Under the pieces are notes generated by a model. The model had not been told where the DNA came from. It saw only the letters and a program-made list of their open reading frames with translations, and did no database searches. This document shows positions 11,601-36,239 of a stretch of 64,000 nucleotides of DNA, piece after piece. Numbering within the stretch: the stretch's first letter is position 1; each line of letters begins with the position of its first letter. A program made the translations under genes and the position numbers. Source of the stretch: the human T2T-CHM13v2.0 reference genome, Homo sapiens; assembly GCF_009914755.1 (NCBI RefSeq), contig NC_060926.1; one strand, 5' to 3'.

Positions 11601-14090
11601 GGGGCAGGCCGCCATCTTTCCCGTTCAGGCAACTTAGTCATTCCAGCCTGCGGGCTTTGGAGAGTACAAACCGACGAGGGACAGAAGAGATCCCACAGCA
11701 CAGCATAGCTGCTTTACCAAATCATGGCCAGACTGCTTCTGTAAGCAGGCCCCTGATCCTGTTCCACCTCACTGGACAGGACCTCCCAACTGGGGCCTCC
11801 AGCTACCCCCACCAGCATTCCTTGGCCAATGGAAATGTGAAATGTTCCTGGGACAGAGCTCCCGGAGAGGGGCAGGCCCCCACCTTTGCTCTTTCGGTGA
11901 CTAGCCATTCTGGCCTGCGGGCTTTGGAGAGCCCAAGCTGACAAGGGGTGGAAGAGGTACCTCAGCACAGCACAGCCACGCTACAAAAACGTGGCCAGAC
12001 TCTTGTTTACGTCAGTCCCTGACCACATTTCTAGTCAGCGGGTGAAGTCTTTCAACCAGGGTCTCTGGCTACCTTGACTGCTGTTCTCTGGCCGACAGAG
12101 GTCTCAGGCCTCCCTGAGTCAGAGCTCCCAGGGGGAGGACCAGATTGTCATCTTTGCTGTTTGGGTGACCCAGCCATTTCAGCCTTAGGGCTTCAGAGTG
12201 TCTGAGGTGGACCAGGGGCTGAAGTGAACCCCCAGCACAGCACAGCTGCTCTATAAAAACGTGGCCAGACTTTTTTTTTTGAAGCAAGTCCCTGTTCTTG
12301 TTCGTCCTGACTAGGTAAGACTTCTCAACTTGCCTCCAGCCACATCTTATAGGTGTGTTCAGATTGGCAACAGGTTCGTACCTCAGTGGTACAGAGCTTC
12401 CAGAGGAAGGGGCAGACTATCATCTTCCCTGGAAAATACAAGGCAATTAGGGACTGGAGGGGACCCCCAGCATACCACAGCAGCCCTACAGAAAAGTGGC
12501 CGGGCTCTCTACTTGATGGGCAGATCCTCCTGGCCTGGGTCTCTAGCCAGCCCACCACTGGAGCTATCAAGCCAGTAGCAACTCTGCAGTTCCTGGGACA
12601 GAGCTTCCAGGAGCAAATGAAATCCTTTCTGCCACTGCCTCTGCAGTGGAACTGCCCTTGCTACCCTCAGAAGATGCAAGGGAGCAAAGACCCTAAGTGC
12701 CCTATCAACACCTCCAATAAGCTGCAGTTGACCCAAAGAACAAGCCAGTCCATCTCCCACGGGTACCACACACCCTCCACTACTCATCACCAGACAGGGA
12801 ACCCTGGCTTGGGCCCACAGCACAGACCCTCCATCCTGGGCTGATTACACTAAGTGATTGCTAACTCACATGTCTCTGGGATGGAGCACCCAGGAAACAA
12901 GCAAAGTGGTGGAGCAGCAAGTCAGGTGATGTGGAGCCCAGAGGTCAGGGATGGCTATCTCTCTAGGGTCCACTTGCCCTTGTGAGACACTTTGTCCCAG
13001 CACTTTAGGAATGCTGAGGTCATACCAGCCACATCTTATATGCAAGATTGCCCAGCAGAGATCAGGTCCGAGAGTTCCCTTTTTAAAAAAAGGAGACTTG
13101 CTTAATAAAAGAAGTCTAGCCATGTTTGTGTAGAGCAGCTGTGCTGTGCTGGGGGTTCACTTTTGAGAGAGTTCTCCTCTGAGACCTGATCTCTGGAGGC
13201 TGGGCAGTCTTGCACTTGAGATGGGGCTGGTCTGATCTCAGCACTCCTTAGTCTGCTCGCCTCTCCCATGGCCCCAGCCTGGCCACACCTGCTTACGGGG
13301 CACTCTTAGATGCCCACACCATAGCTTCCATGCTAGTGGACTGTACCATATCAGTGGAGAGCTGCAGCAAGGTGGCCCCTAGAGCCACGCACCAGCCTGC
13401 ACATTGCCTCTCCATACGGCAGCCCTTTATTTGGAAACTTCCTAAATCACTTTGCTGTGTGTGTTTACACGGGTGGGTTTTGCTTTACTTGCCCTGAGAG
13501 CACACGGGAGTGCAGCACACACCCCAACCCACATCAACTGCCATTAAAGAAAAGAAATTTCAGCCCAGAATTTCATGTCCAGCAAAATTAAGCATCATAA
13601 GTGAAGGAGAAATAAGATCCTTTTCAGACAAGCAAATGCTGAGGGAATTTGGTATCACCAGATCTACCTTACGAGAGCTCCTGAAGGAAGCACTAAATAT
13701 GGAAAGAAAAGATCATCACCTACTACTACAAAAACACTGAAGTACACAGTCCAATGATGCTAAAAACCAAGCACATATGTAAGTCTGCAAAATAACCAGC
13801 TGACAGCATGACGACAGGATAAAATCCACACATACCATTACTAACCTTAAATGTAAATGGGCTAAATGCTCCCATTGAAAGACACGGGGCAAGCTGGGTA
13901 AAGAACCAAGACCCACTGGAGTATGCCGTCTTCAAGCAACCCATCTCACGTGCAGTGCCATACATAGGCTCAAAATAAAGGAATGGAGAAAAATATTTCA
14001 AGCAAATGGAAAACAGAAAAAAGGTGTTGCACTCCCAGTTTCTGACAAAACAGACTCTACCAATAAAGATAAAAAAAGAGAAGGACATTA
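11601..14090 (+). mobile_element. Old primate L1 5' part: repeated 5'UTR monomers (~270 bp), scrambled middle, ORF1 end and ORF2 start
   Basis: Monomers ggggcagg-cgccatcttt...cagcacagcacagc recur at ~11601, 11871, 12135 and 12410. ORF1 peptide KEKKFQPRISCPAKLSIISEGEIRSFSDKQMLREF at 13545-13740. Confidence 0.75.
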
Positions 14091-14790
14091 CAAAGGTGGT
14101 CCTGACCTTTGATAAATCTCATTATTGCTTGATACCAACCTGGGCTATTTGTATTGCCCAAACGAATAGGATAATTTGCTGAGGTTGTGGAGCTTCTCCC
14201 CTTCAGAGAGTCCCTGATCTCCGAAAATTTGGTTGAGATGTAAGGTTGATTTTGCTGTACAACTCCTTTTTTGAAGTTTTACTCATTTCCAACAAGGAAG
14301 GCAAGTTTTCCTGCTTCCATTGACAAAGGAGAGCAGGCACCTCCTTTCCTGAGTTTCAGCTTGCTTCTGACAGGGAAGGTGAGTGTAAGTTTTTCCAGCT
14401 TCTAAGATGGCAGAGAATGATCACCCAGTCTGAGCCTTATTTCCAGGTAAGTAGCTGAATTAGAGTTTTGTCTTAAAATTTTTGTTTAATGACTAAAATT
14501 TAAGATTACCCACCAGCTGCTTTTAATTCCTCCTTACCATTAGAACACTCAGTTAATCATATGAATTGTGCATTTGTTTGTTTTGCTTAACTCTTTTTGT
14601 TTATGTTTGGGGTTTTATTGTTGTTTCACTTTTCTCCCATCTCTTCCTGACTTGGTCAAATCCAAAGGAATGTTCCAAATTGTGGGGAGCAAGGCATCTG
14701 AATTGGCTAAAACTCCTGTGGCTGCAAAACAAAAACAAAAACAAAACAAAAAAAAAAACATAAAAAACAAAAAAATCCAGTTGGAAATTT
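14091..14790 (-). mobile_element. Probable ERV1-class internal fragment
   Basis: Abrupt switch away from L1 sequence; resemblance to MER4-group internal sequence is from memory only. Confidence 0.35.
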
Positions 14791-14797
14791 TTTAAAA

Positions 14798-16426
14798 CTT
14801 TTTTTTAATTTTTAAATTTTATTATTATACTTTAAGTTTTAGGGTACATGTGCACAATGTGCAGGTTTGTTACATATGTATACATGTGCCATGTTGGTGT
14901 GCTGCACCCATTAACTCATCATTTAACATTAGGTATATCTCCTAATGCTATCCCTCCCTCCTCCCCCACCCCACAACAGTTCTCGGTGTGTTATGTTACC
15001 CTTCTGTGTCCACGTGTTCTCATTGTTCAGTTCCCACCTACGAGTGAGAACATGAGGTGTTTGGTTTTCTGTTCTTGTGTTAGTTTGCTGAGAGTGATGA
15101 TTTCCAGCTTCATCGATGTCCCTGCAAAGGACATGAACTCATCCTTTTTTATGGGTGCATAGCATTCCATAGTGTATATATGCCACATTATCCAGTCTAT
15201 CATTGATGGGCATTTGGGTTGGTTCCAAGTGTTTGCTGTTGTGAACTGTGCCGCAGTAAACATACGTGTGCATGTGTCTTTATATTAGAATGATTTATTA
15301 TTTTTTCAGTATATACCCAGTAATGGGATTGCTGGGTTAAATGTATTTCTAGTTGTAGATCCTTGAGGAATTGTCACACTGTCTTCCACAATGGATGAAC
15401 TAATTTATACTACCACCAAGAGTGTAAAAGCGTTCCTATTTCTCCACGTCCTCTCCAACATCTGTTGTTTCCTTATCTTTTAATGTTGGCCATTCTAAGT
15501 GGTGTGAGATTGTATCTCATTGTGGTTTTGATTTCTATTTCTCTAATGACCAGTGATGATGTGGTTTGCTTCACATGTTCTTTAGCTGCATAAATGTCTT
15601 ATTTGGGAAGTGTCTGTTCATATGTTTTGCCCATTTTTTGATGGGGTTGTTTTTTTTCTTGTAAATTTGTTTAAGTTCTTTGTAGATTCTGCATATTAGC
15701 TGTTTGTCAGATGGATAGATTGCAAAAATTTTCTCCCATTCTGTGGGTTGCCTGTTCACTCTGATGATAGTTTCTTTTGCTCTGCAGACACTCTTTAGCT
15801 TAATTAGGTCCCATTTGTCAATTTTGGCTTTTGTTGCCATTGCTTTTGGTGTTGTAGTGATGAAGTCTCTGCCCATGCCTATGTCCTGAATGGTATTGCC
15901 TAACACAAGGACATTTCTGTGCCTGAGTGCCATACCACCCAAAGTGATTTATAGATTCAGTGCTATCCCCATCAAGCTACCATTGACTTTCTTCACAAAA
16001 TTAGAAAAACTACTTTAAATTTCATATGGAACCAAAAAAGAGTCTACATAGCCAAGACAATCCTAAGCAAAAAGATCAAAGCTGGAGGCATCACAGTACC
16101 TGACTTCAAACTATTCTACAAGGCCACAGTAACGGAAACAGCATGGTACTGGTACCAAACCAGGTATATAGACCAATGGAATGGAACAGAGGCCACAGAA
16201 ATGACACCACACATGTAAAACCACCAGATCTTTGACAAAACTGACAAAGGTAAGCACTGGGGAAAGGATTGCCTGTTTGATAAATGGTGTTAGGAAAACT
16301 GGCTAGCCATATGCAGCAAACTGAAACTGGGCCCCTTCCTTACACTTTATACAAAAATTAACTTAAGAAGGATAAAAGAGTTAAACGTAAGACCTAAAAG
16401 CAAAAAACCTAGAAGAAAATGTAGGC
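14798..16426 (-). mobile_element. L1PA 3' end (minus, 14798-15902) plus an inverted ORF2 segment (plus, ~15928-16426)
   Basis: Reverse L1PA 3'UTR with poly-T. The two pieces abut at the same consensus point (taggc|aataccattcagg). Confidence 0.9.
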
Positions 16427-16480
16427 CACCAACCTCAGGGGAAATGTACTTGTAGTGAAATGCATGGTACAAACACGCAT

Positions 16481-19400
16481 TCCCTACTTCCTTGAGTGGG
16501 TGAGGTTGGTGGCTGGTCCATCTGCTCCAAGTGGACCCTTACAGATGTGGCTGGTTGCTCTTTGAGCCAGCTTGGCCTTGCCCGGCATGCACAAGCATCA
16601 GTGAATAACTGTGCTATAAATGGAGCCACATAGAGGAAATGAGCAGCAGGCTCAAGACCATGGTGTGCACTGCCTTTGGCGCTCCAGTCCGTGCCTCAGG
16701 GATGGTATGGCACTGCGAGCTATTTGTTTGCCAAGAGGCAGACCACAGGCCATCTTGAGGAGGACTTTATGTTCAAGTGCAGAAAACAGCCAGGATTACC
16801 ACCCAGGGGACTTGGCCTTCTGTGGCCGTGGCCAGACTTAGAATTTGTGTCAGGGCAGGGCAAGCTCACTCGGAGCAGCGTGTTGGTACCTGGGGCCTGT
16901 GCATGCCAGGGAAGGCCAAGCTGGCTCAAAGAGCAACCAGCCACCTCTGCAAGGGTGCGCCTGGACCAGTTGGACTAGCCACCAACCTCACCCACAGAAG
17001 GAAGCAGGGATGACCAGGTTACAGGAGCCTGAGTAGCTGCCACCTGAGGGCTGATGGAGCAGAGGCCTGAGGAAAATCAGATGACATGTTTAACTGTTTA
17101 ATGGATCTTGTTAATTTTTCTATAAAGCAGATGTCACCAGTCCATGCCTCAGAGCTCGTATGGCACTGCAGACCACAGAAGGCCGAGTCCCCTGGGTGGC
17201 AATCTTGGCTGCTTTCTGCACTTGAACATAAAGTCCTCCTCAAGACGGCCTGTGGTCTGCCTCTTGGCCCTACCTTTAGGGTAGAAGAACCGATGTACCA
17301 TGTTCGGCAGCAAGTGAGGTTGGTGGCTGGTCCGGTTGCTCCTGGCAAACCCTTGCAGAGGTGGCTGGTTGCTCTTTGAGCCAGCTTGGCCTTGCTCGGC
17401 ATGCACAAGCCTCAGTGCGACTACTGTGCCACAAATGGAGCCACAGAGAGGAAATGAGCAGCAGGCTCAGCAGCAGGGTGTGCGCTGTCTTTGGGGCTCC
17501 AGTCCATGCCTCAGGGCTCGTATGGCATTGCAGGCTTCTTGGTTGCCAAGAGGCAGACCACAGGCCGTCTTGAGGAGGACTTTATGTTCAAGTGCAGAAA
17601 GCAGCCATGATTACCACCCAGGGGACTTGGCCTTCTGTGGCCCTGTCCAGACTTAGAATTTGTGTCAAGGCAGGAGAAGCTCACTCGGAGCAGCGTGTTA
17701 GTACCTGGGGCCTGTGCATGCCAGGCAAGGCCAAGCTGGCTCAAAGACCAACCAGCCACCTCTCCAAGGGTGTGCCAGGACCAGGTGGACCATCCAGCAA
17801 CCTCAGCTACTCAAGGAAGCTGGGATGGCCAGTTTCCAACAGCGTGAGTGGCTGCGTCCTGATGGATGATGGAGCAGAGGCCTTAGGAAAAGCAGATGGC
17901 CCTGTGGCCCTACCTTTAGGGTAGAAGTACTGATGTGCCATGTGTGGCAGCAAGTGAGGTTGGTGGCTGGTGCACCGGCTCCTGGCACACCCTCGCAGAG
18001 GTGACTGGTTGCTCTTTGAGCCAGCTTGGCCTTGCCCGGCATGCACAAGCCTCAGTGCAACAACTGTGCTACAAATGGAGCCACAGAGAGAAAAGGAGCA
18101 GCAGGCTCAGGAGCAGCATGTGCACTGCCTTTGGGGCTCCACTCCATGCCTCGGGTCATATAGCACTGCGGGCTTCTTGCTTGCCTAGAGGCGGACCACA
18201 GGCCATCTTGAGGAGGACTTTATGTTCAAGTGCAGAAAGCAGCCAGGATTACCATCCAGGGGACTCGGCCTTCTGTAGCCCTGGCCAGACCTTGCAGAGG
18301 TGGCTGGTTGCTCTTTGAGCCAGCTTGGCCTCCCTGGCATGCACAGGCCCCAGGTAGTAACACGCTGCTCCGAGTGAGCTTGTCCTGCCTTGGCTGCCAC
18401 CTAATTGCTGATGGAGCAGAGGCATTAGGAAAAGCAGATGGCACTGCGGCCCACCTTTAGGGTAGAAGAACTGATGTACCATGTCCGGCCGCTAGTGGGT
18501 GAGTGGTGCACCTGCTCCTGGCACACCCTTGCAGAGGTGGCTGGTTGCTCTTTGAGCCAGCTTGGCCTTCCCCGGCATGCACAAGCCTCAGTGCAACAAC
18601 TGTGCTACAAATGGAGCCACAGAGAGGAAACGAGCAGTAGGCTCAGGAGTCGGGTGTGTGCTGCCTTTGGGGCTCCAGTCCATGCCTCGGGTCGTATGGC
18701 ACTGTGGGCTTCTTGGTTGCCAAGAGGCAGACCACAGGCTGTCTTGAGGAAGACTTTATGTTCAAGTGCAGAAAGCAGCCATGATTGCCACGCAGGGGAC
18801 TCGGCCTTTTGTGGCTCTGGCGAGACTTAGAATTTGTGTGAAGGCAGGAGAAGCTCACTCAGAGCAGCGTGTTACTACCTGGGGCCTGTGCGTGTCCGGG
18901 AAGGCCAAGCTGGCTCAAAAAGCAACCAGCCACCTCTACAAGGGTGCGCCTGGACCAGTTGGACCAGCCACCAACCTCACCCACTGAAGGAAGCAGTGAT
19001 GGCCAGGTTCCCACAGCCTGAGTGGCTGCCACCTGAGGGCTGATGGAGCAGAGGCCTGAGTAAAATCAGATGGCATGTTTAACTCTTTAATAGATCTTAG
19101 GTTAATATTTCTATAAAGCAGATGTCACTAGTCCATGTCTCAGAGCTTGTATGGCAGTGTAGACCACAGAAGGCTGAGTCCCCTTGGTGGCAATCCTGGC
19201 TGCTTTCTGCACTTGAACATAAAGTCCTCCTCAAGACGGCCTGTGGTCTGCCTCTTGGCCCTACCTTTAGGGTAGAAGAACCAATGTACCATGTCCTGCA
19301 GCGAGTGAGGTTGGTGGCTGGTCTGGCTGCTCCTGGCACACACTTGCAGAGGTGGCTGGTTGCTGTTTGAGCCAGCTTGGCCTTGCCTGGCATGCACAAG

Positions 19401-22400
19401 TCTCAGTGCAACAACTGTGCTACAAATGGAGCCACAGAGAGGAAATGAGCGGCAGAGTTAGGAGCAGGATGTGCGCTGCCTTTGGGGCTCCAGTCCATGC
19501 CTCGGGTCGTATGGCACTGCAGGCTTCTTGGTTGCCAAGAGGCAGACCACAGGCCCTCTTGAGGAGGACTTCATGTTCAAGTGCAGAAAGCAGCCAGGAT
19601 TACCATCCAAGGGACTCGGCCTTCTGTGGCCCTGGCCAGACTCAGAATTTGTGCCAAGGCAGGACAAGCTCACTCGGAGCAGCGTGTCAGTAGCTGGGGC
19701 CTATGCATGCCAGGCAAGGCCAAGCTGGCTCAAAGAGCAACCAGCCACCTCTGCAAGGGTGTGCCAGGAGCAGGTGGACCATCCAGCAACCTCAGCTACG
19801 CAAGGAAGCTGGGATGGCCAGGTTCCAACAGCCTGAGTGGCTGCCTCCTGATGGCTGATGGAGCAGAGGCCTTAGGAAAAGCAGATGGTCCTGTGGCCCT
19901 ACCTTTGGGGTAGAAGTACTGATGTGCCATGTCCGGTAGCAAGTGAGGTTGGTGGCTGGTGCACCGGCTCCTGGCACACCCTCGCAGAGGTGACTGGTTG
20001 CTCTTTGAGCCAGCTTGGCCTTGCCCGGCATGAACAAGCCTCAGTGCAACCTCTCTGCTACATATGGAGCCACAGAGAGGAAACGAGCAGCAGGCTCAGG
20101 AGCAGGCTGTGCGCTGCCTTTGGGGCTCCAGTCCAAGCCTCGAGTCGTATAGCACTGCGGGCTTCTTGCTTGCCTAGAGGCAGAAAACAGGCCGTCTTGC
20201 GGAGGACTTTATGTTCAAGTGCAGAAAGCAGCCAGGATTACCATCCAGGGGACTCAGCCTTCTGTGGCCCCGGCCAGACCTTGCAGAGGTGGCTGGTTGC
20301 TCTTTGAGCCAGCTTGGCCTCCCTGGCATGCACAGGCCCCAGGTAGTAACACGCTGCTCTGAGTGAGCTTGTCCTGCCTTGGCTGACACCTAATTGCTGA
20401 TGGAGCAGAGGCATTAGGAAAAGCAGATGGCACTGCGGCCCACCTTTAGGGTAGAAGAACTGATGTACCATGTCCGGCCGCTGGTGGGTGAGTGGTGCAC
20501 CTGCTCCTGGCACACCCTTGCAGAGGTGGCTGGTTGCTCTTTGAGCCAGCTTGGCCTTGCCCGGCATGCACAAGCCTCAGTGCAACAACTGTGCTACAAA
20601 TGGAGCCACAGAGAAGAAAGGAGCAGCAGGCTCAGGAGCAGGGTGTGCACTGCCTTTGGGGCTCCACTCCATGCCTCGGGTCATATAGCACTGCGGGCTT
20701 CTTGCTTGCCTAGAGGCGGACCACAGGCCATCTTGAGGAGGACTTTATGTTCAAGTGCAGAAAGCAGCCAGGATTACCATCCAGGGGACTCGGCCTTCTG
20801 TAGCCCTGGCCAGACCTTGCAGAGGTGGCTGGTTGCTCTTTGAGCCAGCTTGGCCTCCCTGGCATGCACAGGCCCCAGGTAGTAACACGCTGCTCCGAGT
20901 GAGCTTGTCCTGCCTTGGCTGCCACCTAATTGCTGATGGAGCAGAGGCATTAGGAAAAGCAGATGGCACTGCGGCCCACCTTTAGGGTAGAAGAACTGAT
21001 GTACCATGTCCGGCCGCTAGTGGGTGAGTGGTGCACCTGCTCCTGGCACACCCTTGCAGAGGTGGCTGGTTGCTCTTTGAGCCAGCTTGGCCTTCCCCGG
21101 CATGCACAAGCCTCAGTGCAACAACTGTGCTACAAATGGAGCCACAGAGAGGAAACGAGCAGTAGGCTCAGGAGTCGGGTGTGTGCTGCCTTTGGGGCTC
21201 CAGTCCATGCCTCGGGTCGTATGGCACTGTGGGCTTCTTGGTTGCCAAGAGGCAGACCACAGGCTGTCTTGAGGAAGACTTTATGTTCAAGTGCAGAAAG
21301 CAGCCATGATTGCCACGCAGGGGACTCGGCCTTTTGTGGCTCTGGCGAGACTTAGAATTTGTGTGAAGGCAGGAGAAGCTCACTCAGAGCAGCGTGTTAC
21401 TACTTGGGGCCTGTGCGTGTCCGGGAAGGCCAAGCTGGCTCAAAAAGCAACCAGCCACCTCTACAAGGGTGCGCCTGGACCAGTTGGACCAGCCACCAAC
21501 CTCACCCACTGAAGGAAGCAGTGATGGCCAGGTTCCCACAGCCTGAGTGGCTGCCACCTGAGGGCTGATGGAGCAGAGGCCTGAGTAAAATCAGATGGCA
21601 TGTTTAACTCTTTAATAGATCTTAGGTTAATATTTCTATAAAGCAGATGTCACTAGTCCATGTCTCAGAGCTTGTATGGCAGTGTAGACCACAGAAGGCT
21701 GAGTCCCCTTGGTGGCAATCCTGGCTGCTTTCTGCACTTGAACATAAAGTCCTCCTCAAGACGGCCTGTGGTCTGCCTCTTGGCCCTACCTTTAGGGTAG
21801 AAGAACCAATGTACCATGTCCCGCAGCGAGTGAGGTTGGTGGCTGGTCTGGCTGCTCCTGGCACACACTTGCAGAGGTGGCTGGTTGCTGTTTGAGTCAG
21901 CTTGGCCTTGCCTGGCATGCACAAGTCTCAGTGCAACAACTGTGCTACAAATGGAGCCACAGAGAGGAAATGAGCGGCAGAGTTAGGAGCAGGATGTGCG
22001 CTGCCTTTGGGGCTCCAGTCCATGCCTCGGGTCGTATGGCACTGCAGGCTTCTTGGTTGCCAAGAGGCAGACCACAGGCCCTCTTGAGGAGGACTTCATG
22101 TTCAAGTGCAGAAAGCAGCCAGGATTACCATCCAAGGGACTCGGCCTTCTGTGGCCCTGGCCAGACTCAGAATTTGTGCCAAGGCAGGACAAGCTCACTC
22201 GGAGCAGCGTGTCAGTAGCTGGGGCCTATGCATGCCAGGCAAGGCCAAGCTGGCTCAAAGAGCAACCAGCCACCTCTGCAAGGGTGTGCCAGGAGCAGGT
22301 GGACCATCCAGCAACCTCAGCTACTCAAGGAAGCTGGGATGGCCAGGTTCCAACAGCCTGAGTGGCTGCCTCCTGATGGCTGATGGAGCAGAGGCCTTAG

Positions 22401-24746
22401 GAAAAGCAGATGGTCCTGTGGCCCTACCTTTGGGGTAGAAGTACTGATGTGCCATGTCCGGTAGCAAGTGAGGTTGGTGGCTGGTGCACCGGCTCCTGGC
22501 ACACCCTCGCAGAGGTGACTGGTTGCTCTTTGAGCCAGCTTGGCCTTGCCCGGCATGAACAAGCCTCAGTGCAACCTCTCTGCTACATATGGAGCCACAG
22601 AGAGGAAACGAGCAGCAGGCTCAGGAGCAGGCTGTGCGCTGCCTTTGGGGCTCCAGTCCAAGCCTCGAGTCGTATAGCACTGCGGGCTTCTTGCTTGCCT
22701 AGAGGCAGAAAACAGGCCGTCTTGCGGAGGACTTTATGTTCAAGTGCAGAAAGCAGCCAGGATTACCATCCAGGGGACTCAGCCTTCTGTGGCCCCGGCC
22801 AGACCTTGCAGAGGTGGCTGGTTGCTCTTTGAGCCAGCTTGGCCTCCCTGGCATGCACAGGCCCCAGGTAGTAACACGCTGCTCTGAGTGAGCTTGTCCT
22901 GCCTTGGCTGACACCTAATTGCTGATGGAGCAGAGGCATTAGGAAAAGCAGATGGCACTGTGGTCCACCTTTAGGGTAGAAGAACTGATGTACCATGTCC
23001 GGCCGCTGGTGGGTGAGTGGTGCACCTGCTCCTGGCACACCCTTGCAGAGGTGGCTGGTTGCTCTTTGAGCCAGCTTGGCCTTCCCTGGCATGCACAAGC
23101 CTCAGTGCAACAACTGTGCTACAAATGGAGCCACAGAGAGGAAACAAGCCGCAGGGTCAGGAGCAGGGTGTGCGCTGCCTTTGGGCCTCCAGTCCATGCC
23201 TCAGAACTCGTATGGCACTGCAGGCTTCTTGGTTGCCAAGAGGCAGACAACAGGCTGTCTTGAGGAGGACTTTATGTTCAAGTGCAGAAAGCAGCCCGGA
23301 TAACCATCCAGGGGACTTGGCCTTCTGTGACCCTGGCCAGACTCAGAATTTGTGCCAATGCAGGACAAGCTCACTTGGAGCAGTGTGTCAGTAGCTGGGG
23401 CCTATGCATGCCAGGCAGGGCCAAGCTGGCTCAAAGAGCTACCAGCCACCTCTGCAAAGGTGTGCCAGGAGCAGGTGGACCAGCCACCAACTTCAGCCAC
23501 TGAAGGAAGCACGGATGGCCAGGTTCCAACAGCCTGAGTGGCTATCTTCTGATGGCTGATGGAGCAGAGGCCTTAGGAAAAGCAGATGGCCCTGTGGCCC
23601 TACCTTTATGGTAGAAGTACTGATGTGCCATGTCCGGTAGCAAGTGAGGTTGGTAGCTGGTGCACCGGCTCCTGGCACACCGTTGCAGAAGTGACTGGTT
23701 GCTCTTTGAGCCAGCTTGGCCTTGCCTGGCATGCACAAGCCTCAGTGCAACAACAGTGCTACAAATGGAGCGACAGAGAGGAAACGAGTGGCAGACTTAG
23801 GAGCAGGGTGTGCGCTGCCTTTGGGGCTCCAGTCCATGCCTCGGGTCCTATGGCACTGCGGGCTTCATGGTTGCCAAGAGGCAGACCACAGGCCATCTTG
23901 AGGAAGACTTTATGTTGAAGTGCAGAAAGCAGCCAGGATTACCACTCAGGGGACTTGGCCTTCTGTGGCCCTGGCCAGACTCAGAATTTGTGTCACGGCA
24001 GGACAAGCTCACTCGGAGCAGCGTGTTAGTACCTGGGGCCTGTGCATGCCAGGAAAGGCCAAGCTGGCTCAAAGCGGAATCAGCCACCTCTACAAGGGTG
24101 CGCCTGGACCTGTTGGACCAGCCACCAGCTTCACCCACTGAAGGAAGCCGGGATGGCCAGGTTCCATCAGCCTGAGTGGCTGTCTCCTGATGGCTGATGG
24201 AGCAGAGTCCTTAGGAAAAGCAGATGGCCTTGTGGCCCTACCTTTAGGGTAGAAGTACTGATGTGCCATGTCTGGCAGCAAGTGAGGTTGGTGGCTGGTG
24301 CACCGGCTCCTGGCGCACCCTTGCAGAGGTGACTGGTTGCTCTTTGAGCCAGCTTGGCCTTGCCCGGCATGCACAAGCCTCAGTGCAACAACTGTGCTAC
24401 AAATGGAGCCACAGAGAAGAAATGAGCAGCAGGCTCAGGAGCAGGGTGTTCGCTGCCTTTGGGGCCGCAGTCCATGCCTCAGGCATCATATGGCACTGCG
24501 GGCTTCTTGGTTGCCAAGAGGCAGACCACAGGCCATCTTGAGGAGGACTTCATGTTCAAGTGCAGAAAGCAGCCAGGATTAGCATCTAGGGGACTCGGCC
24601 TTCTGTGGCCCTGGCCACACTTAGAATTTGTGTCAAGGCAGGACAAGCTCACTCGGAGCAGCATGTTGCTACCTGGGGCCTGTGTATGCCAGGCAAGGCC
24701 AAGCTGGCTCAAAGAGCAACCAGTCACCTCTGCAAGGATGCGCCTG
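16481..24746. repeat. Compound tandem array: 13 units of 815 / 638-640 / 536 bp containing ~94 bp inverted repeats
   Basis: Anchor TGGAGC(C/G)AC at 16621, 17436, 18076, 18612, 19427, 20065, 20601, 21137, 21952, 22590, 23126, 23766 and 24404. Confidence 0.95.
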
Positions 24747-24749
24747 TCG

Positions 24750-27700
24750 TCTGGAGGTTGGTGGCTCCCTGTGTTAGTCCTCCAAGCCCATATTTTCCTT
24801 CTGCACTGCCCTCGCAGAGGTTTCTGAAGACGCTCTGCCTCTGCAGCATGCTTCTGCCTGGAAACAGTGGGAGGTAGTTTTGCAGGGTGGAAGCCTTCAC
24901 CAGTGGTTAAGCACCATCTTCATGATGCTGACCTCGTGATAGTTCTCATGAGATCTGCTTGTATAACATGATGTGGCACCTCTTTCCTCTCTCTGTCTTG
25001 CTCCTTCTCCTGCTGTATGAAACATCTCCTTGCCCCTTGGTCTTCTAGTATGATTGGGAGGCACCTGAGTCCTCCCAGAAGCAGAAGCCACTGTGCTTCC
25101 TTTGCAGCCTGCAGAACTGTGAGCCAATGAAACCTCTTTTCTTTTTGATCATACAGAAGGTTAGTACTGTGAAGTGAAGCTATGAAATTCCTTCAAGGCC
25201 TTTTCCCTATGAAATGCCTTCAAGGCCTTTTCCCCATTGTCTTGGCAAGCAGCACTCAGCTTCTTTTCATGCAAATATCTGAAGCCTGTGTGAATTTTTT
25301 CCCTGAAAATGGACTTTTCTTCTTTTACCACATTGCCAGGCTGTGACACAGAGAGCTGATAATGTAGAAGCAGGTTCAGTAGTGGGTAAAAGACAGAGGT
25401 CGGGAGAGTTGGGAAAGCTTAAAAGACAGCAAGATGAGGAAAAGCTTGGACCCCTGTAGAGAATTGTTAAATACTTGTGATCAGAAGGCTGACAGAAGGA
25501 TGGACAGTGAAGGCCAGACTTAAAAGTTCTCGGATAAAAATCAGGAATTTCCTGTGAATAGGAGCCAAAGCTACATTTGATTTGCCCAACAGAGGCTGCA
25601 CAGTGACCTTGCCCTGGAGATCTGTGAAACTATGAACTTGGGGGTGATGATTTAGGATGTATCTTGTGGAATGAACATCTAAGCAGCATAGCTCAAGAGG
25701 TGTCCTGTCTGCGTCGAGCAGCCTGTGTTGTTATGTATGAGCTAAGAAAGGACCTCAAGTTGGAACTTCTACTTAGAAGCGGAGCTCAAAAGTTTGGAAA
25801 ATTTGCAGCCTAGTCAAGTGGTCAAAAAGAAAAGCTGATTTTCAGGGCGAAAATTCAATAAGGCTTAGAGTATTTGCATAAAAAGGAGGTTAGTGCAAGT
25901 GTCCAAGACAAAGGGTAAAAGGCCTTGAAGGCATTTCAGAGACCTTTGCAGTAGCCTTTGCTCTCACAGGCCCTGGGGCCTAGCAGAGAAGAATGGTTTC
26001 CTGGGCCAGTTCCATGGCCCTGCTGCTGTGTGCATCCTCAGGACACTGCTGCCTGCATCCCTGCAGCCCCAGCTCCAGCCATGGCTGAATGATGCACAGG
26101 TACAGCTTGGGTCACTACTTCACATGTGGCTCCAAGCCTTGATGGCTTCCACATAGTGTTAAGGCAGCAGGTGAAGAGAGCAAGAGACTAGAGGCTTTGG
26201 AGCCTCTTGTCTGGACTCCAGAGGATGTAGAGAAAAGCCTGGGTGTCCAGGCAGTAGCCTTTCCAAGAGGCTCATGGAAAACCTCTGCTAGGGCAGCAAA
26301 GAAGGGCCATGTAGTGTTGAAGCCCCCTCACAGGGAGGCTCCATTCTCCAAACCCCAGATTCATAGACCCACCAACATCTTGCACCCTCAGTGTGGAAAA
26401 GCTACAGGCATTCAAAACAGCCCTGTCCATGAGAGGCAGCTGTGGGTGCTGAACGCTGCAAAGCCACAGGTGCAGATCTGCCCAAGGCCTTGGGAGCCCA
26501 GCCCTCAGCCCTGTGCCATGGATGTGGGACGAGGATTCAAAAAGGATGATTTTGGAGCTGTCGGATTGAATGACTGGCCTGCTGGGTTTTGGATGTTCAT
26601 GTATCCTGTGAGTCCCATCTGTGTTTTGTTTTTCTTTCTGGCATTTTTTTTCTACTGGCTGGGAATGCTTACCCATTGCATGTACAATCATTGTACCTTG
26701 GAATTAGTTAACTTGCTTTATAATTCAGAAACTCAGGGGCAGATCGGACTGTAGCCTTGTCTCAGACGAGACTTTGGGCTTTGGACATTTGAGTAAATGC
26801 TGGAATTATTTAAGATTTGGGGGCCTGTGGGGAAGGTATCATTGTATTCTGCAATGTAAGAAGCAGGAGATTTGGGGGACCAGGGACAGAATAATATAAT
26901 TTGGCTCTGTGTCCCTACCAAAGCTCGTGGAATTGTAATGGGCAAAGTTAAAGGTGGGGACTGGTGGAAGGTGATTTAATCATGGTGGAGAGTGGAGTTT
27001 GGAAGGTGGGGGTGGTTGGGAGCATTGGGGGGGATTGTGTTGGGGTTGTGGGGAAAGGCAGAGGTGGGGGGCAGATTCTTCACAAATGGTTAAACACCAT
27101 CTTTGTAATGCTGTCCTTCTGACAGTGAGTTTGCTTCATGGTTTAGGAGCTTTGAGATTTGAATACTGGCCTGCTGGGTTTTGGATGTGCATTGGGCCTG
27201 TGGTCCCATTTGTGTTATTTTTCTGGGAAATTTCTTCCCTTTGGAGTGAGAAAGCTTACCCAATGCCTGTACCATCATCGTACCTTAAAAGAACTCCATT
27301 TTAAGTTCAGGGACTCATTGGCAGAAGAGACCGTAGCCTTGTATCAGATAAGACTTTGAACTTCTTACATTTGGGTTAACGCTGGAATGAGTTAAGGCTT
27401 TTGTAAACATTTGAAAAGGCATGACTGTATTTTACTCTGTGAGAATGACATGAGATTCGGGGGAGGGGGTCAAGGTCAGAATAATATGGTTTGGCTGTGT
27501 TTCCCTAGAAAAACTCATGTGGAATTGCAATCCCGAATGTTGGAGGTGGAGCCTGGTGGGAGGTGATTTAATCATGGATGGGGGGTGGGTGGGGTTGGAG
27601 GGAAAAAGAGGTGGGTAGCGTGGTGAGGAGTAAGCTCGCTGTAGGGTGGTGGGAGGGTGGGGGTAGTAGGAAGGAGGAGTAGCCTGCTGCAGAGGCAGAG

Positions 27701-30045
27701 GCTCGTAGAAAACCTCTGCTAGGACTGTGCACCTGTGGCTTTGCAGGGTGTAGCCCCCGTGGCTGCTCTCATGGGCTGGGCTGGTGTTGAGTGCCGGTAG
27801 CTTTTCCATACTGAAGGTGCGAGCTGTTGATGGGTCTATGAATCTGGGGTCTGGAGGATGGTGGCCTCCTGCATAGGGGCTCCAAGCCCATATTTTTCTT
27901 CTGCACTGCCATAGTACAGGTTTTCCAAGAGGCTCAGGCTCTGCCTCAGGCTTCTGTCCAGAAACAGTAGGGGGTGGAGGTGGGTTGGGGGCGGATCCTT
28001 CACTAATGATTAAGCACCATCTTCTTGATGCTGACCTCGTGATAGTGAGTTCTCATGAACTTCCTCATAGTGTTAAGCCACTGGTTGGATGGAGCATGAG
28101 CCTAGGGGCTTGGGAGGCTCTGTATAGATTTTGGAGGATGTATGGAAATGTCTGGGTGTCCAGGCAAAAGCCTTCCTAAAGGGCAGAACCTCATAAGAAA
28201 CCTCTACTAGGGCAGTACAGAAGGAAAATATGGGGTTGGAGACCCCACACTGGAGGCCACCATCATGAAGACTGCAGATTAATAGACCCCGCAACAGCTT
28301 GTACCGTCAGTGGGTAAAAGCTACAGGCGCTCAACACCAGCCCAGCCCATGAAGACAGCCGTGGGGCATAAACCCTGCAAAGCCACAGGTGCAGAGCTGC
28401 CCAAGGCCTTGGGAGCCCAGCCCTTACATCCCTGTGCCCTGGATGTGGGACAAGGTTTCAAAAAGGGTAATTTTGGAGCTGTAGGATTGAATGACTGGCC
28501 TTCTGGGTTTGGAGTTTCATGGGGTCTGTAAGTCCTTTCTGTGTTTTGTTCTTTCTGGCAAAATTATTCCTTTTGGCTGGGAATGCTTACCCATTGCCTG
28601 TATAAGCATTGTACCTTGGAAGTAGTTAACTTTCTTTATATTTCAGAGGCTCATGAGCCTAAGGGTCTGCAGCCTTGTGTTAGATGAGACTTTAAGCTTT
28701 GAATATTTGTATAAATGATGAAATGATATAAGACTTTGGGGGACTGTAGGGAAGCTATCATTGTAGTTTGCAATGTGAGAAGGACATGAGATTTGGGGAG
28801 CCAGGGACAGAATAATAAAATTTAGCTCTGTGTCCCTACCAAAATTCGTGTGGAATTGTAATGGGGAATGTTAAAGTTGGGGCCTGGTGGAAGGTGATTT
28901 AATCATGGTGGAGTGTGGGGGTTGGGAGGTGGGGGATAGGGAGAATGGGGAGATTATGTTGGGGGTGAGGGGTGAAAAGTGATGGTGGCTCCTTCACAAA
29001 TGATTAGACACAATCTCTTTATTTCTGTACTTGTGATGGTGAGTTCTCTTCATGATTTTGGAGCAGTGAGATTGAATGGATACTGGTCTCCTGGGTTTTG
29101 GACTTGCATTGGTCCTGTGGTCCCATCTGTGTTATTTTGCTGGGAAATTTCTTCCCGTTGGACTGAGAAAGCTTACCCAATGGGTGTACCATCATTGTGT
29201 CTTAAAAGAACACCCTTTTAAATTCAGGGACTTATAGGCAAAAGGGACTGTAGGCTTGTCTCAGATGAGACGTTGAACCTTTTACATTTGAGTTAATGCT
29301 GGAATGAGTTAAGACTTTTGGCAACTTTTGAAAAGGTGTGATTGTATTTTGCTCTGTGAGAAGGACATGAGATTCGGAGGGGTCAGGGTCAGAATAACAT
29401 GGTTTGGCTGTGTTTCCCTACAGAAACTCATGTGAATTGTAATCTTGAATGTTGGAGATGGGGCCTGGTGGAAGGTGATTTAACCATGGATGGGAGGGGG
29501 TTGGAGTTGGAAGGAAATAAAGTGGACAGTGTTGGGAGGAGTGGGTTGTCAGTAGGGTGGTGAGAGGATGGTGGGTATTAGGAAGCGGGAGTAGCCTGCT
29601 GCAGAGTCACATCCTCATGGAAAACCTCTGCTAGGGCAGTGCTCCTGTGGCTTTGCAGGCTTTAGCCCCCATGGCTGCTCTCATGGGCTGGGCTGGTGTT
29701 GAGTGCTTTTGCATACTGAGGGTGCGGGCTGTTGGTGGGCTTATGAATCTGGGGTCTGGAGGATGGTGGCCTCCTGTGTGGGGGCTCCAAGCCCATATTT
29801 CCCTTCTGCACTGCCATAGTGGAAGTTTCCCAAGAGGCTCTGCCTCTGCAGGAGGCTTCTGCCTGGAAACAGTAGGCGGTGGTGTGTGTGGTGGATCCTT
29901 CACCAGTGGTTAATCTTGATGCTGATCTGATAGTGAGTTCTCATGTGATCTGGTTGTATAATGGGCTGTGGCACCTCTTTTCTCTCTGTGTCTTGCTTCT
30001 ATTTCTGCCATATGAAACATCTGATTGCCACTTGGCCTTCTGATG
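24750..30045. mobile_element. Rearranged and tandemly duplicated MaLR (MST/THE1) LTR and internal sequence
   Basis: MST LTR end (gcagcctgcagaactgtgagccaat at ~25103), MaLR-internal motifs (ctgtggaactttgaact-like, gatgagactttgg) and repeated tatggtttggctgtgt LTR starts, in both orientations. Confidence 0.75.
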
Positions 30046-30054
30046 TGGTTAGGA

Positions 30055-31632: not shown

Positions 31633-31831
31633 GCTGAGCGCTGCTTGGAGAAGCCAGGTGCATTGCACGTTATCGAGGGCCCTCTGGACAGCTGGGATGG
31701 CCCAGTGATGCCCAATGGCCCGGTCAAAAGTGGACAAAGCAGTTGTTTGGATGGACCTGGGAGATGTTGCTCAGAGATTCTGACAGGACAAAGGTGAAGA
31801 AAGGGTCTGGAGAGATGGTCACAGTCTATGG

Positions 31832-35658: not shown

Positions 35659-36134
35659 GTGGGTGCAGGGCCTCATGGCCTGTTCCCCAGCCCCTCTCAT
35701 TGGCTCTGCTCCAGGTGGTGAAGGGGGAAAATGTTTTTGTCAATTCTGTCATGATTGCCTAGCAAGAAAAGGAGCAGAACCAAGAAGCAGTAAAATCAGT
35801 TAGTAAAATCAGTTTTCTTTTCTGAACTACATTTCTACCATCTCTAATTGAGGGGAATTCCTTCGACTCCACGAGGTTGCTTGGAGAATGACTGACAGTG
35901 TATGTAGAGCAGGTGCCAGCCAGCAGGCGTTTGGTGTCCAGACCACTCTGCCCCCTTGATTTTCTGCCTATATTTTCATTTTGTTCCCAAGACCCTCACT
36001 CCCCTTAATTTTGCTTTTCCCTCTGATTCCCACCTTATCTTCTATCCCATGGATTCACCAGGATGTAAGTGGGTAACAGTTATCTATGCATGTATGTGTA
36101 TGTATGTACGTTCTCTGTTGGTGTTGGAGTATGG

Positions 36135-36206
36135 TGTGTGTGTGTGAGAGAGTGTGTGTGTGTGTGTGTGTGAGAGAGAGAATGTGTGTGTGTGTGTGTG
36201 TGTGTT
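36135..36206. repeat. Compound (TG)n/(GA)n microsatellite
   Basis: Directly visible. Confidence 0.95.
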
Positions 36207-36239
36207 GGGGTCACTGAGGGACTGAAACTCTCCACACCA

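What the first reader, a model, noticed from the sequence alone, without database searches (positions are those of the whole stretch)
16481..24746. 8.3 kb array in which most units are long inverted-repeat cassettes (a potential poly-hairpin dsRNA locus just downstream of POTE-actin)
Seen: the basic ~639 bp unit is arm A (GTGAGGTTGGTGGCTGG...GGTTGCTCTTTGAGCCAGCTTGGCCTTGCCCGGCATGCACA, ~94 bp), a ~303 bp spacer, reverse-complement arm A', then a ~148 bp linker. Examples are 23644-23737 with 24041-24134; the first stem is 113 bp (16481-16593 with 16898-17010). I cannot match the unit to any satellite or transposon I recognise. Inference: transcription from either strand, for example read-through from POTE (whose retrocopy poly-A signal is mutated) ~5 kb upstream, would give a chain of long, imperfect stems. 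These could be substrates for ADAR editing, Dicer/endo-siRNA or piRNA processing, or dsRNA sensing in testis and tumours where POTE genes are expressed.
Basis: partly seen in the sequence, partly recalled or inferred. Interest (0 to 1): 0.8.

Follow-up and report, generated by a model that had tools for sequence, protein, structure and literature searches.

The report
Old tandem array with decaying hairpins
The hairpin-rich 8.3 kb array downstream of POTEE is real, but it looks like an old, neutrally decaying tandem repeat, partly built from a dead SNX18 retrocopy and copied to dozens of pericentromeric sites, and nothing shows it is a selected double-stranded RNA gene.

Summary
Window ~16481-24785 is a GC-rich tandem array of 13 units (536, 638-640 or 815 bp). 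Nine of the 13 carry ~100-nt inverted arms, and single units fold far better than shuffles (z -8.1 and -7.2).

The functional reading is not supported by the one evolutionary test I could run. The consensus of 71 hairpins from 12 loci has 95% complementary arms; single units have a mean of 83%. Same-unit pairing equals cross-unit pairing (0.8326 vs 0.8312). The pair-count tool finds no covariation above shuffles. The arms are no better conserved than the loop, and CpG o/e is 0.225.

The array is not POTE-specific. At least 29 multi-unit loci on chr2, 4, 9, 13, 14, 15, 18, 20, 21, 22 and Y carry it, and single-period monomers lie on chr3 and chr9.

About 175 nt of each unit, including the second inverted arm "B", derives from the 5' end of an intron-less SNX18 retrocopy. 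That retrocopy still flanks the monomers and the chr4 array. The origin of the main arms is unknown.

Transcription, RNA editing and small RNAs could not be tested. Dfam membership could not be tested either.

The parts
16481..24785 (+). The whole tandem array: 13 units, GC about 0.57, CpG o/e 0.225.
16500..17313 (+). Unit 1, the 815-bp variant: A 16500-16601 (the stem extends to 16481), B 16730-16825, A' 16890-17010, then the linker carrying the inverted copy B' at 17173-17268.
   Evidence: (I1, I5)
17314..17953 (+). Unit 2, the canonical 640-bp unit: A 17314-17415, SNX18 5'UTR-like segment t about 17437-17520, B 17545-17640 (its first 56 nt match the SNX18 PX-domain coding sequence), A' 17705-17805, linker 17806-17953.
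   Evidence: (I23)
17954..18489 (+). Unit 3, the 536-bp variant: A, then B, then a partial direct copy of A in place of A', so no A/A' hairpin. Among the 12 loci examined this variant was seen only in the chr2 arrays.
18490..20478 (+). Units 4-6 (815 + 638 + 536 bp). This is the first copy of the ~2,525-bp higher-order duplicate. B' lies at 19164-19259.
   Evidence: D3, D6, D12; I2, I13
20479..21014 (+). Unit 7, the 536-bp variant.
21015..23003 (+). Units 8-10 (815 + 638 + 536 bp). This is the second copy of the higher-order duplicate, 99-100% identical to units 4-6 in the compared 300-nt blocks. B' lies at 21689-21784.
   Evidence: D3 99%, D6 100%; I4, I14
23004..24281 (+). Units 11 and 12 (640 and 638 bp), both canonical A-B-A' hairpin units.
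24282..24785 (+). Unit 13, truncated. Only arm positions 38-102 of its A' were aligned by BLAST, and its 3' arm is 75% identical to the consensus.
14000..16480 (+). Upstream flank. It is shared at 87-93% identity with the arrays on chr4, 9, 15, 18, 20 and 21. It contains repeat-masked stretches that I read as L1-like; that reading is my recollection of L1 sequence, not a tool result.
   Evidence: hub mask table

Best explanation
This is an old, essentially neutral tandem array carried passively by pericentromeric and acrocentric segmental duplications. It is not a selected hairpin-RNA gene.

The ancestral unit is a 640-bp stretch that still exists as a single period on chr9 and chr3. It has two parts:
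- about 465 nt of unknown origin that already held one near-perfect inverted repeat (A', a 148-nt linker, then A);
- the first ~175 nt of a 5'-rearranged, intron-less SNX18 retrocopy. That piece is a 5'UTR fragment joined by an internal ~1.06-kb deletion to codon ~336 of the PX domain.

The likely history, which is inference except where a call is cited under evidence:
1. This stretch was tandemly duplicated, which created arm B at the unit junction.
2. Later an inverted copy of B was inserted into some linkers, giving the 815-bp units.
3. The array was then copied with its flanks to many chromosomes.
4. On chr2 it lost the retrocopy body, gained 536-bp units and grew by a 2.5-kb higher-order duplication to 13 units.

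Since the single ancestral inverted duplication, the two arms have accumulated substitutions independently. Stem complementarity has fallen from about 95% to about 83%. Hairpin potential is therefore inherited structure that is decaying. Any dsRNA made by read-through would be a by-product.
For: Arms:
- The consensus of 71 hairpins from 12 loci is 95.1% Watson-Crick over 102 pairs.
- Each arm is about 92% identical to the consensus.
- Individual units are 52-92% paired (all 71 listed). The mean is 0.8326 over the 67 of 71 kept after dropping four terminal units whose 3' arm is under 75% identical to the consensus.
- Cross-unit pairing is 0.8312. In the permutation, 365 of 2000 shuffles reach the observed value.

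Tool test on 37 units from 8 loci:
- paired cells 87.4% against 87.3 +/- 0.2 (146 of 500 shuffles reach it);
- pairs changed on both sides 10 against 13.1 (468 of 500);
- covariation score 0.061 against 0.059 (131 of 500).

No differential constraint: mean column identity is A 0.925, t 0.916, B 0.934, s 0.903, A' 0.919.

CpG o/e is 0.225, as expected of methylated, decaying DNA (inference).

Unit divergence matches flank divergence. Units in the window are 85-89% identical to units on other chromosomes. The upstream flank is 87-93% identical.

Within-array median unit identity is 0.81-0.90. Position-matched units on chr15, 18 and 21 are 91-99% identical. So the array is older than its dispersal and has been little homogenised.

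Distribution:
- 435 matches genome-wide, and 29 multi-unit loci among the 150 rows listed.
- 392 hits to a 22-nt arm core, 0 in the reversed-pattern control.

SNX18 origin:
- Monomer locus L038 aligns contiguously to chr5 SNX18: 5'UTR 731-848 (E 3.5e-9), exon 1 1908-2520 (E 6e-112), then exon 2 and 3'UTR 159-806 (E 5e-145), without the ~23.6-kb intron. The chr4 array locus does the same.
- Segment t alone scores 36 against 11.4 +/- 1.3 for 200 shuffles.
- B arms in the window match SNX18 1908-1963 at 71-77% in both orientations.
- An ORF across B aligns to SNX18 residues 337-358 (E 7e-4).
- BAR-domain (PF10456) fragments lie directly after arrays on chr4, 9, 13, 20 and Y.
Against: - No expression, editing, small-RNA or methylation data could be consulted. 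A recently acquired RNA role that has left no covariation is not excluded.
- The 22-nt arm core is the best-conserved window of the unit on arm A, and its mirror on A' ranks fourth (0.975 and 0.958). Column shuffling reaches that value in 95 of 2000 trials, a marginal hint of sequence constraint.
- B' is slightly closer to adjacent B copies (0.924) than to all others (0.911). Locus relatedness can explain this.
- The copies are related by duplication, so the effective sample is smaller than 71.
- The order of rearrangement events is inferred from present-day copies only. The array ends are not in the phase expected from a simple tandem duplication of the monomer, so extra deletions must be assumed.
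- The origin of arms A and A' and of the linker is unknown. They give no signal against SNX18 exon 1, exon 2 or 6.8 kb of downstream sequence.
Confidence: 0.75

Rival explanations
1. It is a functional poly-hairpin RNA locus. Read-through from POTE genes, or local transcription in testis or tumours, yields long imperfect stems that are used by ADAR, Dicer or the piRNA pathway, or that trigger dsRNA sensors.
For: - Strong predicted stems on both strands, and several long stems in a 1.5-kb stretch.
- Annotated POTEE transcripts end at 14729, 1.75 kb upstream on the same strand (hub table).
- About 100-bp stems at 83-87% pairing resemble, from my recollection, inverted-Alu substrates of ADAR.
- The many copies would multiply any output.
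Against: - No covariation.
- The arms are no more conserved than the loop.
- Complementarity has decayed from about 95% to about 83%.
- 4 of 13 units in the window have lost A'.
- No RefSeq exon lies inside 16481-24785 (hub table).
- No credible Rfam hit: 5 matches, all far below their gathering scores.
- The array is also present where no POTE gene is known to me, on chr4, 9, 20 and Y.
Confidence: 0.1
2. It acts as a DNA-level instability element. The inverted repeats form hairpins or cruciforms that stall replication and seed the breakpoints of segmental duplications and the array's own rearrangements.
For: - Homology between duplicon classes changes at or inside the terminal units. The chr4, 9, 20 and Y arrays end at A' position 52 and run into the SNX18 retrocopy. 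The chr15, 18 and 21 arrays end at position 39 and run into a different, AT-rich sequence shared among those three loci. The window ends at position 38 and lacks the retrocopy body.
- Inverted insertions (B') and an A' replaced by a direct partial A occur within units.
- At chr3 an inverted BAR fragment sits at the unit/retrocopy junction.
Against: - There are only three junction classes, so coincidence with repeat-rich pericentromeric DNA is not excluded.
- No breakpoint statistics and no population variation data were available.
- The stems are imperfect (83%), which, from my recollection, lowers cruciform propensity.
Confidence: 0.12
3. It is simply a copy of an already catalogued repeat family in Dfam or RepeatMasker, or of a T2T 'composite subunit' or a satellite such as SN5 or REP522. 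In that case nothing here is new.
For: - The array is multi-copy and pericentromeric, like the catalogued minor satellites.
- Hoyt et al. (preprint 10.1101/2021.07.12.451456, section 5 passages and section 6 part 1 read) added 62 new repeat entries, including arrays also found as monomers.
- The chromosomal spread of SN5 as I recall it is similar. That is recollection only.
Against: - Only 170 nt of the array (20498-20667) is masked in NCBI's file (hub table).
- D20S16 has a 49-bp unit (PMC12287470, sections 6-8 read).
- SATR1 and SATR2 mark OR7E 'Xiao' duplicons (PMC5088589, passages read).
- No paper in the searched library links SNX18 pseudogenes or POTE to a pericentromeric tandem repeat (0 relevant papers).
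Confidence: 0.3

Closest known systems
Processed pseudogenes propagated secondarily by segmental duplication, such as the SEPTIN14P-CICP family (PMC13015009, abstract read), and the HGNC SNX18P pseudogene family (name recalled; it appears only in gene lists in the 9 papers)
   Same: One RNA-derived insertion is spread to many pericentromeric and acrocentric loci by DNA-level duplication. The intron-less exon 1 to exon 2 junction is seen here.
   Different: Here the first ~175 nt of the retrocopy were captured into a tandemly amplified unit together with upstream DNA. In the chr2 (POTE) copies the retrocopy body is gone, and only the in-array fragments remain.
T2T 'composite' or macrosatellite arrays, such as 5SRNA_Comp (Hoyt et al. 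preprint 10.1101/2021.07.12.451456, section 6 part 1 read)
   Same: It is a tandem array whose unit is a mosaic that includes captured gene-derived sequence. Arrays occur at some loci and monomers at others, enriched near centromeres and spread by duplication.
   Different: No transposable-element subunit was identified. Units are old and diverged (81-90% within arrays) rather than near-identical. The internal long inverted repeats are the striking feature. I could not check whether it is among their 19 composites, because the preprint's supplements are closed.
Inverted-repeat Alu pairs as ADAR and MDA5 dsRNA substrates, and hairpin-RNA (endo-siRNA) loci of Drosophila and mouse oocytes (recalled knowledge, not from a call)
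   Same: Long imperfect intramolecular stems would form if the array is transcribed.
   Different: There is no evidence of transcription or processing. The stems are ~100 bp rather than ~300 bp. There is no covariation or conservation of pairing.
POTE long inverted repeat (Wang and Leung 2009, seen only as cited in PMC7073761, passages read)
   Same: It is a large stem-loop-forming inverted repeat associated with POTE loci.
   Different: That repeat is described as part of POTE genes themselves. This array is intergenic, 1.75 kb or more past the last POTEE exon. It is tandemly repeated and also occurs away from POTE genes.
D20S16 satellite (PMC12287470, sections 6-8 read)
   Same: It is a minor human satellite studied on T2T-CHM13 and found as clusters on several chromosomes.
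   Different: D20S16 has a 47-53-bp unit on chr2, 3, 5-9 and 20. The unit here is 536-815 bp and has a different chromosomal distribution.

Membership tests
SNX18 processed-pseudogene-derived sequence | Nucleotide homology of the element to SNX18 mRNA | tested here: met
   Segment t matches the SNX18 5'UTR 731-848 (E 3.5e-9; score 36 against 11.4 +/- 1.3 in 200 shuffles). The first 56 nt of B match 1908-1963. In the window itself these matches are 71-77% (B) and 64-68% (t). Only about 175 of 640 nt are covered. A, A' and the linker give no signal.
SNX18 processed-pseudogene-derived sequence | Intron-less exon 1 to exon 2 junction | tested here: met
   It is met at the monomer loci L038, L039 and L040 and at the chr4 array L031: exon 1 ends at 2520 and exon 2 follows 3-4 nt later. 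It is not present in the window, where the retrocopy body is absent. No hit was found in 24700-40000 or 12000-16500 at E <= 1e-4.
SNX18 processed-pseudogene-derived sequence | Poly-A tail and target-site duplication | not tested
   The 3' end of the retrocopy (about m38 4731) was not inspected for a poly-A tract or a target-site duplication.
SNX18 processed-pseudogene-derived sequence | The parent gene is SNX18 rather than SNX9 or SNX33 | tested here: met
   The 3'UTR aligns to the chr5 gene (79%, about 640 nt). The chr5 protein has SH3, PX and BAR domains. It is distinct from the SNX33 and SNX9 structures and from the chr15 and chr6 genes. The name SNX18 for the chr5 gene is my recollection of its map position.
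Hairpin-RNA, endo-siRNA or ADAR-substrate locus | Long intramolecular inverted repeat able to form a stem | tested here: met
   Stems of 94-121 nt at 81-97% complementarity. Fold z-scores are -8.1 and -7.2.
Hairpin-RNA, endo-siRNA or ADAR-substrate locus | Pairing maintained in evolution (compensatory change, or stems better kept than loops) | tested here: not met
   there is no excess over shuffles, same-unit pairing equals cross-unit pairing, and the arms are as diverged as the loop.
Hairpin-RNA, endo-siRNA or ADAR-substrate locus | Transcription and small RNAs or editing from the stems | not testable with these tools
   No expression data are held. No RefSeq exon lies in the array (hub table).
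Tandem repeat (minor satellite or macrosatellite-like array) | Head-to-tail units at several loci | tested here: met
   There are 13 units here, and 3-8 units at the chr4, Y, 9, 20, 18, 21 and 15 loci.
Tandem repeat (minor satellite or macrosatellite-like array) | Homogenisation of units within arrays (concerted evolution) | tested here: not met
   Median within-array identity is 0.81-0.90, no higher than between chromosomes. The exception is the recent chr2 higher-order duplicates, up to 0.998.
D20S16 satellite | Unit of about 49 bp containing a CAGCT motif | tested here: not met
   The unit here is 536-815 bp. The D20S16 description comes from PMC12287470, sections 7-8.
Catalogued Dfam or RepeatMasker family (SN5, REP522, SATR1/2, T2T composite subunits) | Full-length match to the family consensus | not testable with these tools
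   No Dfam or Repbase library is on hand. Only indirect literature evidence is available.

The most novel reading that the evidence does not exclude
The ~200 hairpin units at 29 or more POTE/SNX18P-linked loci together form a primate-specific, multi-copy source of long dsRNA. This source would switch on when pericentromeric duplicons are derepressed or read through, in testis or in hypomethylated tumours that express POTE genes. It would feed ADAR editing or MDA5/PKR sensing. The same inverted repeats would make the arrays preferred breakpoints of pericentromeric duplication.
Probability: 0.1. Interest if true: 0.6.

Novelty: new member of a known kind. Interest (0 to 1): 0.3.

Why it matters
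The practical value is for annotation.
- A 536-815-bp tandem repeat with internal ~100-nt palindromic arms sits at dozens of pericentromeric and acrocentric loci, and only 170 nt of it is masked in NCBI's file here.
- Part of it is an unrecognised fragment of an SNX18 retrocopy.
- Any RNA-seq, small-RNA or editing signal from it will multi-map across at least 29 loci, and could be mistaken for a POTE-specific feature.

It is also a clean example of two things: a retrocopy fragment captured into a tandem unit and then spread by segmental duplication, and a long inverted repeat decaying when nothing maintains it.

If array transcripts turn out to be abundant in testis or tumours, the array would add a source of endogenous dsRNA that is not Alu-derived.

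Tried and rejected
- **Tandem Repeats Finder** did not report the array, because the period exceeds 500.
- **Rfam** at E <= 1 gave 5 hits (htlv_FSE, MIR856 twice, ZNRD1-AS1_2, Atu_L1), all far below their gathering scores. I treated them as chance.
- **Naming by literature:**
  - SATR1/SATR2 were rejected on context, as they mark OR7E/Xiao duplicons.
  - D20S16 was rejected on unit size.
  - For SN5 only a one-line mention was found.
  - chAB4 returned nothing usable.
  - POTE with 'pericentromeric' and 'tandem repeat' gave 0 papers.
  - The POTE family paper mentions only the intragenic long inverted repeat.
  - LOC440910 appears only in gene lists.
  - SNX18P appears only in gene lists.
  - SNX18 with 'pseudogene' and 'pericentromeric' gave 0 papers.
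- **Pfam** on 12 long ORFs of the array gave nothing below E 0.1. The many 90-146-aa open frames (41 listed) reflect GC-richness, not coding.
- **Origin of A, A', the linker and b2/s:** sensitive local alignment against SNX18 exon 1 on both strands gave scores within the shuffle range. BLAST against exon 2 plus 6.8 kb of downstream sequence found nothing beyond the retrocopy body.
- **A possible A' remnant and shortened linker** just upstream of the first arm (about 16425-16499) scored 31 against 19.5 +/- 3.8 in shuffles (maximum 36). This is not conclusive.
- **The conserved 22-nt arm core:** column shuffling reached its value in 95 of 2000 trials, so it is marginal.
- **A CTCF-like motif** that I noticed by eye in B was not pursued, because no motif library was available.

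Full report
**1. Observation**

The stretch 16481-24785 differs sharply from its surroundings. GC is 0.52-0.59 inside it and 0.34-0.40 just upstream.

Direct-repeat analysis finds 12-13 in-register copies with start-to-start spacings of 815, 640, 536, 815, 638, 536, 536, 815, 638, 536, 640 and 638 nt. Tandem Repeats Finder reported nothing there because its longest period is 500.

The inverted-repeat search returned 52 pairs of at least 40 nt within 1 kb. The 25 longest are 94-121 nt and 81-97% complementary.

BLAST of the first unit against the array, and mapping of two arm probes, give this anatomy:
- The canonical 640-bp unit is A (102 nt), t (~130 nt), B (96 nt), s (~65 nt), A' (102 nt) and a linker (148 nt).
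- Three 815-bp units carry an extra inverted copy of B (B') in the linker.
- Four 536-bp units have a partial direct copy of A where A' should be.

A' can also pair with the next A across the linker, and B' pairs with B at 93-97%.

Units 4-6 and 8-10 form a ~2,525-bp higher-order duplicate that is 99-100% identical in the compared blocks.

One unit folds at -314.3 kcal/mol (z -8.14, 0 of 20 shuffles as good). Its reverse strand folds at -304 kcal/mol (z -7.19, 0 of 20). A 1.5-kb stretch folds into successive long stems, including a B'/B stem.

**2. Distribution**

A 643-nt unit finds 435 matches in the window's own assembly. The 150 listed rows fall into 29 multi-unit clusters:

| Chromosome | Positions (Mb) |
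|---|---|
| chr2 | 130.49, 130.88, 131.10, 131.70 (this window), 132.07 |
| chr4 | 49.16, 49.41 |
| chr9 | 76.81 |
| chr13 | 9.48, 10.51 |
| chr14 | 2.95, 3.95, 5.71, 5.84 |
| chr15 | 4.84, 18.74, 19.84 |
| chr18 | 14.66 |
| chr20 | 30.09 |
| chr21 | 0.32, 5.72, 7.50, 7.63, 11.99 |
| chr22 | 5.82, 7.49, 7.64, 10.54 |
| chrY | 11.40 |

A 22-nt core of the arm occurs 392 times with at most one mismatch, and 0 times for the reversed control. This search adds sites on chr1, chr2:95.29, chr3:95.66, chr9:33.59, 38.59 and 109.32, and chr14:13.32 Mb (only the first 100 places were listed).

Among the seven other loci I fetched, array sizes are as follows:
- 3 units on chr4 and chrY;
- 4-5 units on chr9 and chr20;
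- 6 units on chr18 and chr21;
- 8 units on chr15.

The 13-unit window array and its chr2 paralogues are the expanded forms.

The upstream flank 14000-16480 is shared at 87-93% with chr4, 9, 15, 18, 20 and 21. So the array belongs to a widely copied pericentromeric and acrocentric duplicon. It also lies on chromosomes that, to my knowledge, have no POTE gene (chr4, 9, 20, Y).

**3. Is the pairing maintained?**

I extracted 71 A-to-A' hairpins from 12 loci and aligned them. The consensus arms are 95.1% Watson-Crick over 102 pairs, so the ancestral inverted duplication was near perfect.

Each arm is about 92% identical to the consensus, and single units are 52-92% paired. I dropped four terminal units whose 3' arm is under 75% identical to the consensus, leaving 67 of 71.
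- Mean same-unit pairing is 0.8326.
- Mean pairing of an arm with the partner arm of any other unit is 0.8312.
- 365 of 2000 permutations reach the observed value.

On an independent tool alignment of 37 units from 8 loci, the count of structure pairs gives these results:

| Measure | Observed | Shuffled | Shuffles reaching it |
|---|---|---|---|
| Paired cells | 87.4% | 87.3 +/- 0.2 | 146 of 500 |
| Pairs changed on both sides | 10 | 13.1 | 468 of 500 |
| Covariation score | 0.061 | 0.059 | 131 of 500 |

The slid controls fall to 32-46% paired. That shows only that the register is right.

The arms are no better conserved than the loop: A 0.925, A' 0.919, t 0.916, B 0.934, s 0.903. The best-conserved 22-nt window is the arm core, and its mirror ranks fourth. 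A column shuffle reaches that value in 95 of 2000 trials, which is marginal.

CpG o/e is 0.225.

Units within an array are as diverged from each other (median identity 0.81-0.90) as from units on other chromosomes. Position-matched units on chr15, 18 and 21 are 91-99% identical. chr2 paralogues are up to 99% identical.

Together these results describe an old array that has been copied as a block. It has been little homogenised, apart from the recent chr2 duplicates. Its stems are decaying by independent substitution.

**4. Origin**

At chr9:109.32, chr9:33.59 and chr3:95.66 Mb (L038-L040) the repeat is present as exactly one period, 617-642 nt. Its phase is b2, s, A', linker, A, t, b1, where B = b1 + b2. 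B is therefore the junction created by tandem duplication, and A'-linker-A is the ancestral palindrome.

The sequence directly after the monomer is also the downstream flank of the chr4 and chrY arrays, at 86% over 2.3 kb (the chr9 and chr20 flanks are 94-97% identical to chr4's).

A short ORF at the chr3 locus hit Pfam BAR_3_WASP_bdg (E 1.2e-11). A genome-wide search with that family places BAR fragments immediately after the arrays on chr4, 9, 13, 20 and Y and after the chr9 monomer. It also finds the intact genes on chr5, chr15 and chr6.

Alignment to the chr5 gene (L041 and L042) gave the following for L038:
- 3414-3531 matches the 5'UTR 731-848 (67.5%, E 3.5e-9);
- 3532-4116 matches exon 1 1908-2520 (73%, E 6e-112);
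- 4120-4731 matches exon 2 and 3'UTR 159-806 (79%, E 5e-145).

The ~23.6-kb intron is absent. L039, L040 and the chr4 array locus behave the same way.

The chr5 protein has SH3, PX and BAR domains. Its closest solved relatives are SNX33 and SNX9. I call it SNX18 from its map position, which is recollection.

Segment t alone scores 36 against 11.4 +/- 1.3 for 200 shuffles, and the differences look like CpG decay. The first 56 nt of B correspond to PX-domain codons ~336-354. In the window, B arms in both orientations match at 71-77%, and an ORF across B aligns to residues 337-358 (E 7e-4).

So about 175 of the 640 nt are the 5' end of an SNX18 retrocopy that carries an internal ~1.06-kb deletion. 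The junction does not look like canonical splicing (context).

The rest of the unit (A, A', the linker, b2 and s) shows no similarity to SNX18 exon 1, exon 2 or 6.8 kb of downstream sequence. Its origin is unknown.

In the window the retrocopy body is absent. There is no hit in 24700-40000 or 12000-16500, and no chr2:131.7 Mb row among the 150 scored BAR matches (55 further candidates were not scored). The window's downstream flank matches sequence that lies beyond the retrocopy at the monomer locus.

The array ends are not in the phase expected from a simple tandem duplication of the monomer. The chr4-type arrays carry an extra ~160 nt (b2, s and part of A') before the retrocopy. The POTE-type arrays end at a different arm position: 38 or 39, against 52. 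Secondary deletions must be assumed, and that part is inference.

**5. Mechanism**

The best-supported reading (confidence 0.75) has four steps:
1. A palindrome-bearing stretch and the adjoining 5' end of a dead SNX18 retrocopy were tandemly amplified long ago.
2. The array acquired an inverted B insertion.
3. It was dispersed by segmental duplication.
4. It was recently expanded on chr2 by unequal exchange of a 2.5-kb block.

The hairpin potential is inherited and eroding. What is shown: the structure, the distribution, the partial SNX18 origin and the lack of covariation or differential conservation. What is inferred: the order of events and neutrality.

Rivals:
- A used dsRNA source (0.10). 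It is physically plausible but has no positive evidence.
- A DNA-level instability element (0.12). This is suggested by three different junction classes at the terminal units and by internal inversions, but the number of cases is small.
- Independently, the family may already have a Dfam name (0.3). I could not test this.

**6. Comparison with known things and novelty**

The array works like other gene-fragment-capturing tandem arrays in duplicated pericentromeric DNA (Hoyt et al. preprint, section 6 part 1 read). It also resembles SD-propagated processed pseudogenes (PMC13015009, abstract read).

It is not D20S16, which has a 49-bp unit (PMC12287470, sections 6-8 read). It is not the intragenic POTE long inverted repeat (PMC7073761, passages read). 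By context it is unlikely to be SATR1 or SATR2 (PMC5088589, passages read).

Searches for POTE or SNX18 pseudogenes together with pericentromeric tandem repeats found no description. The library lacks most subscription journals, and the T2T preprint's supplements are closed, so a prior description cannot be excluded.

I rate it a new member of a known kind, with interest 0.3. The boldest reading still open is a derepression-dependent multi-locus dsRNA source that doubles as a duplication breakpoint hotspot. I give it probability about 0.1 and interest 0.6 if true.

Noticed in passing
L038 (chr9:109.32 Mb), L039 (chr9:33.59 Mb), L040 (chr3:95.66 Mb): Single-period (617-642 nt) monomers of the repeat lie directly upstream of an intron-less SNX18 retrocopy. 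This retrocopy joins 5'UTR nt 731-848 to exon 1 nt 1908 through an internal ~1.06-kb deletion that removes the SH3 domain and most of the PX domain.
   Followed up: yes
L040:1717-1870 (+), with twin BAR hits at chr3:95659624-95659842 (-) and 95660216-95660377 (+); the same pattern appears on chr1, 4, 13, 14, 15, 20, 21 and 22: In one class of loci a ~150-nt BAR-domain fragment (Pfam positions 107-160) sits in inverted orientation at the junction between the unit and the retrocopy. This is a second fold-back rearrangement in the same duplicon family.
   Followed up: partly
window 26662-26982, 27220-27559, 28551-28905, 29136-29473; also 27551-27808 and 29456-29706: One ~350-nt stretch of the monomer locus matches four places downstream of the array at 75-77%, and a ~250-nt stretch matches two. 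So the 26.6-29.7 kb region holds another, looser set of direct repeats.
   Followed up: no
window 25180-25234: There is a two-copy 27-nt tandem repeat with 96% matches.
   Followed up: no
window 25791 (first exon of LOC440910, from the hub table): The annotated lncRNA starts about 1 kb downstream of the array on the same strand. Papers that mention LOC440910 only list it among genes.
   Followed up: partly
window 16425-16499: Just after the L1-like flank, and before the first arm, there is a short stretch resembling the end of an A' arm and a shortened linker. The first stem is thereby extended to 121 nt. The similarity to a regular linker is weak: score 31 against 19.5 +/- 3.8 in shuffles, maximum 36.
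   Followed up: partly
L035-L037, immediately downstream of the chr18, 15 and 21 arrays: The arrays on chr15, 18 and 21 stop at arm position 39. They run into a shared AT-rich sequence with a long T run, which I read as an L1 fragment from recollection. This differs from both the chr2 and the chr4-type downstream flanks.
   Followed up: partly
G000 chr14:13320106-13327373: Another long array, 7 kb or more judging by hits to the arm core, lies at chr14:13.32 Mb. It was not fetched.
   Followed up: no
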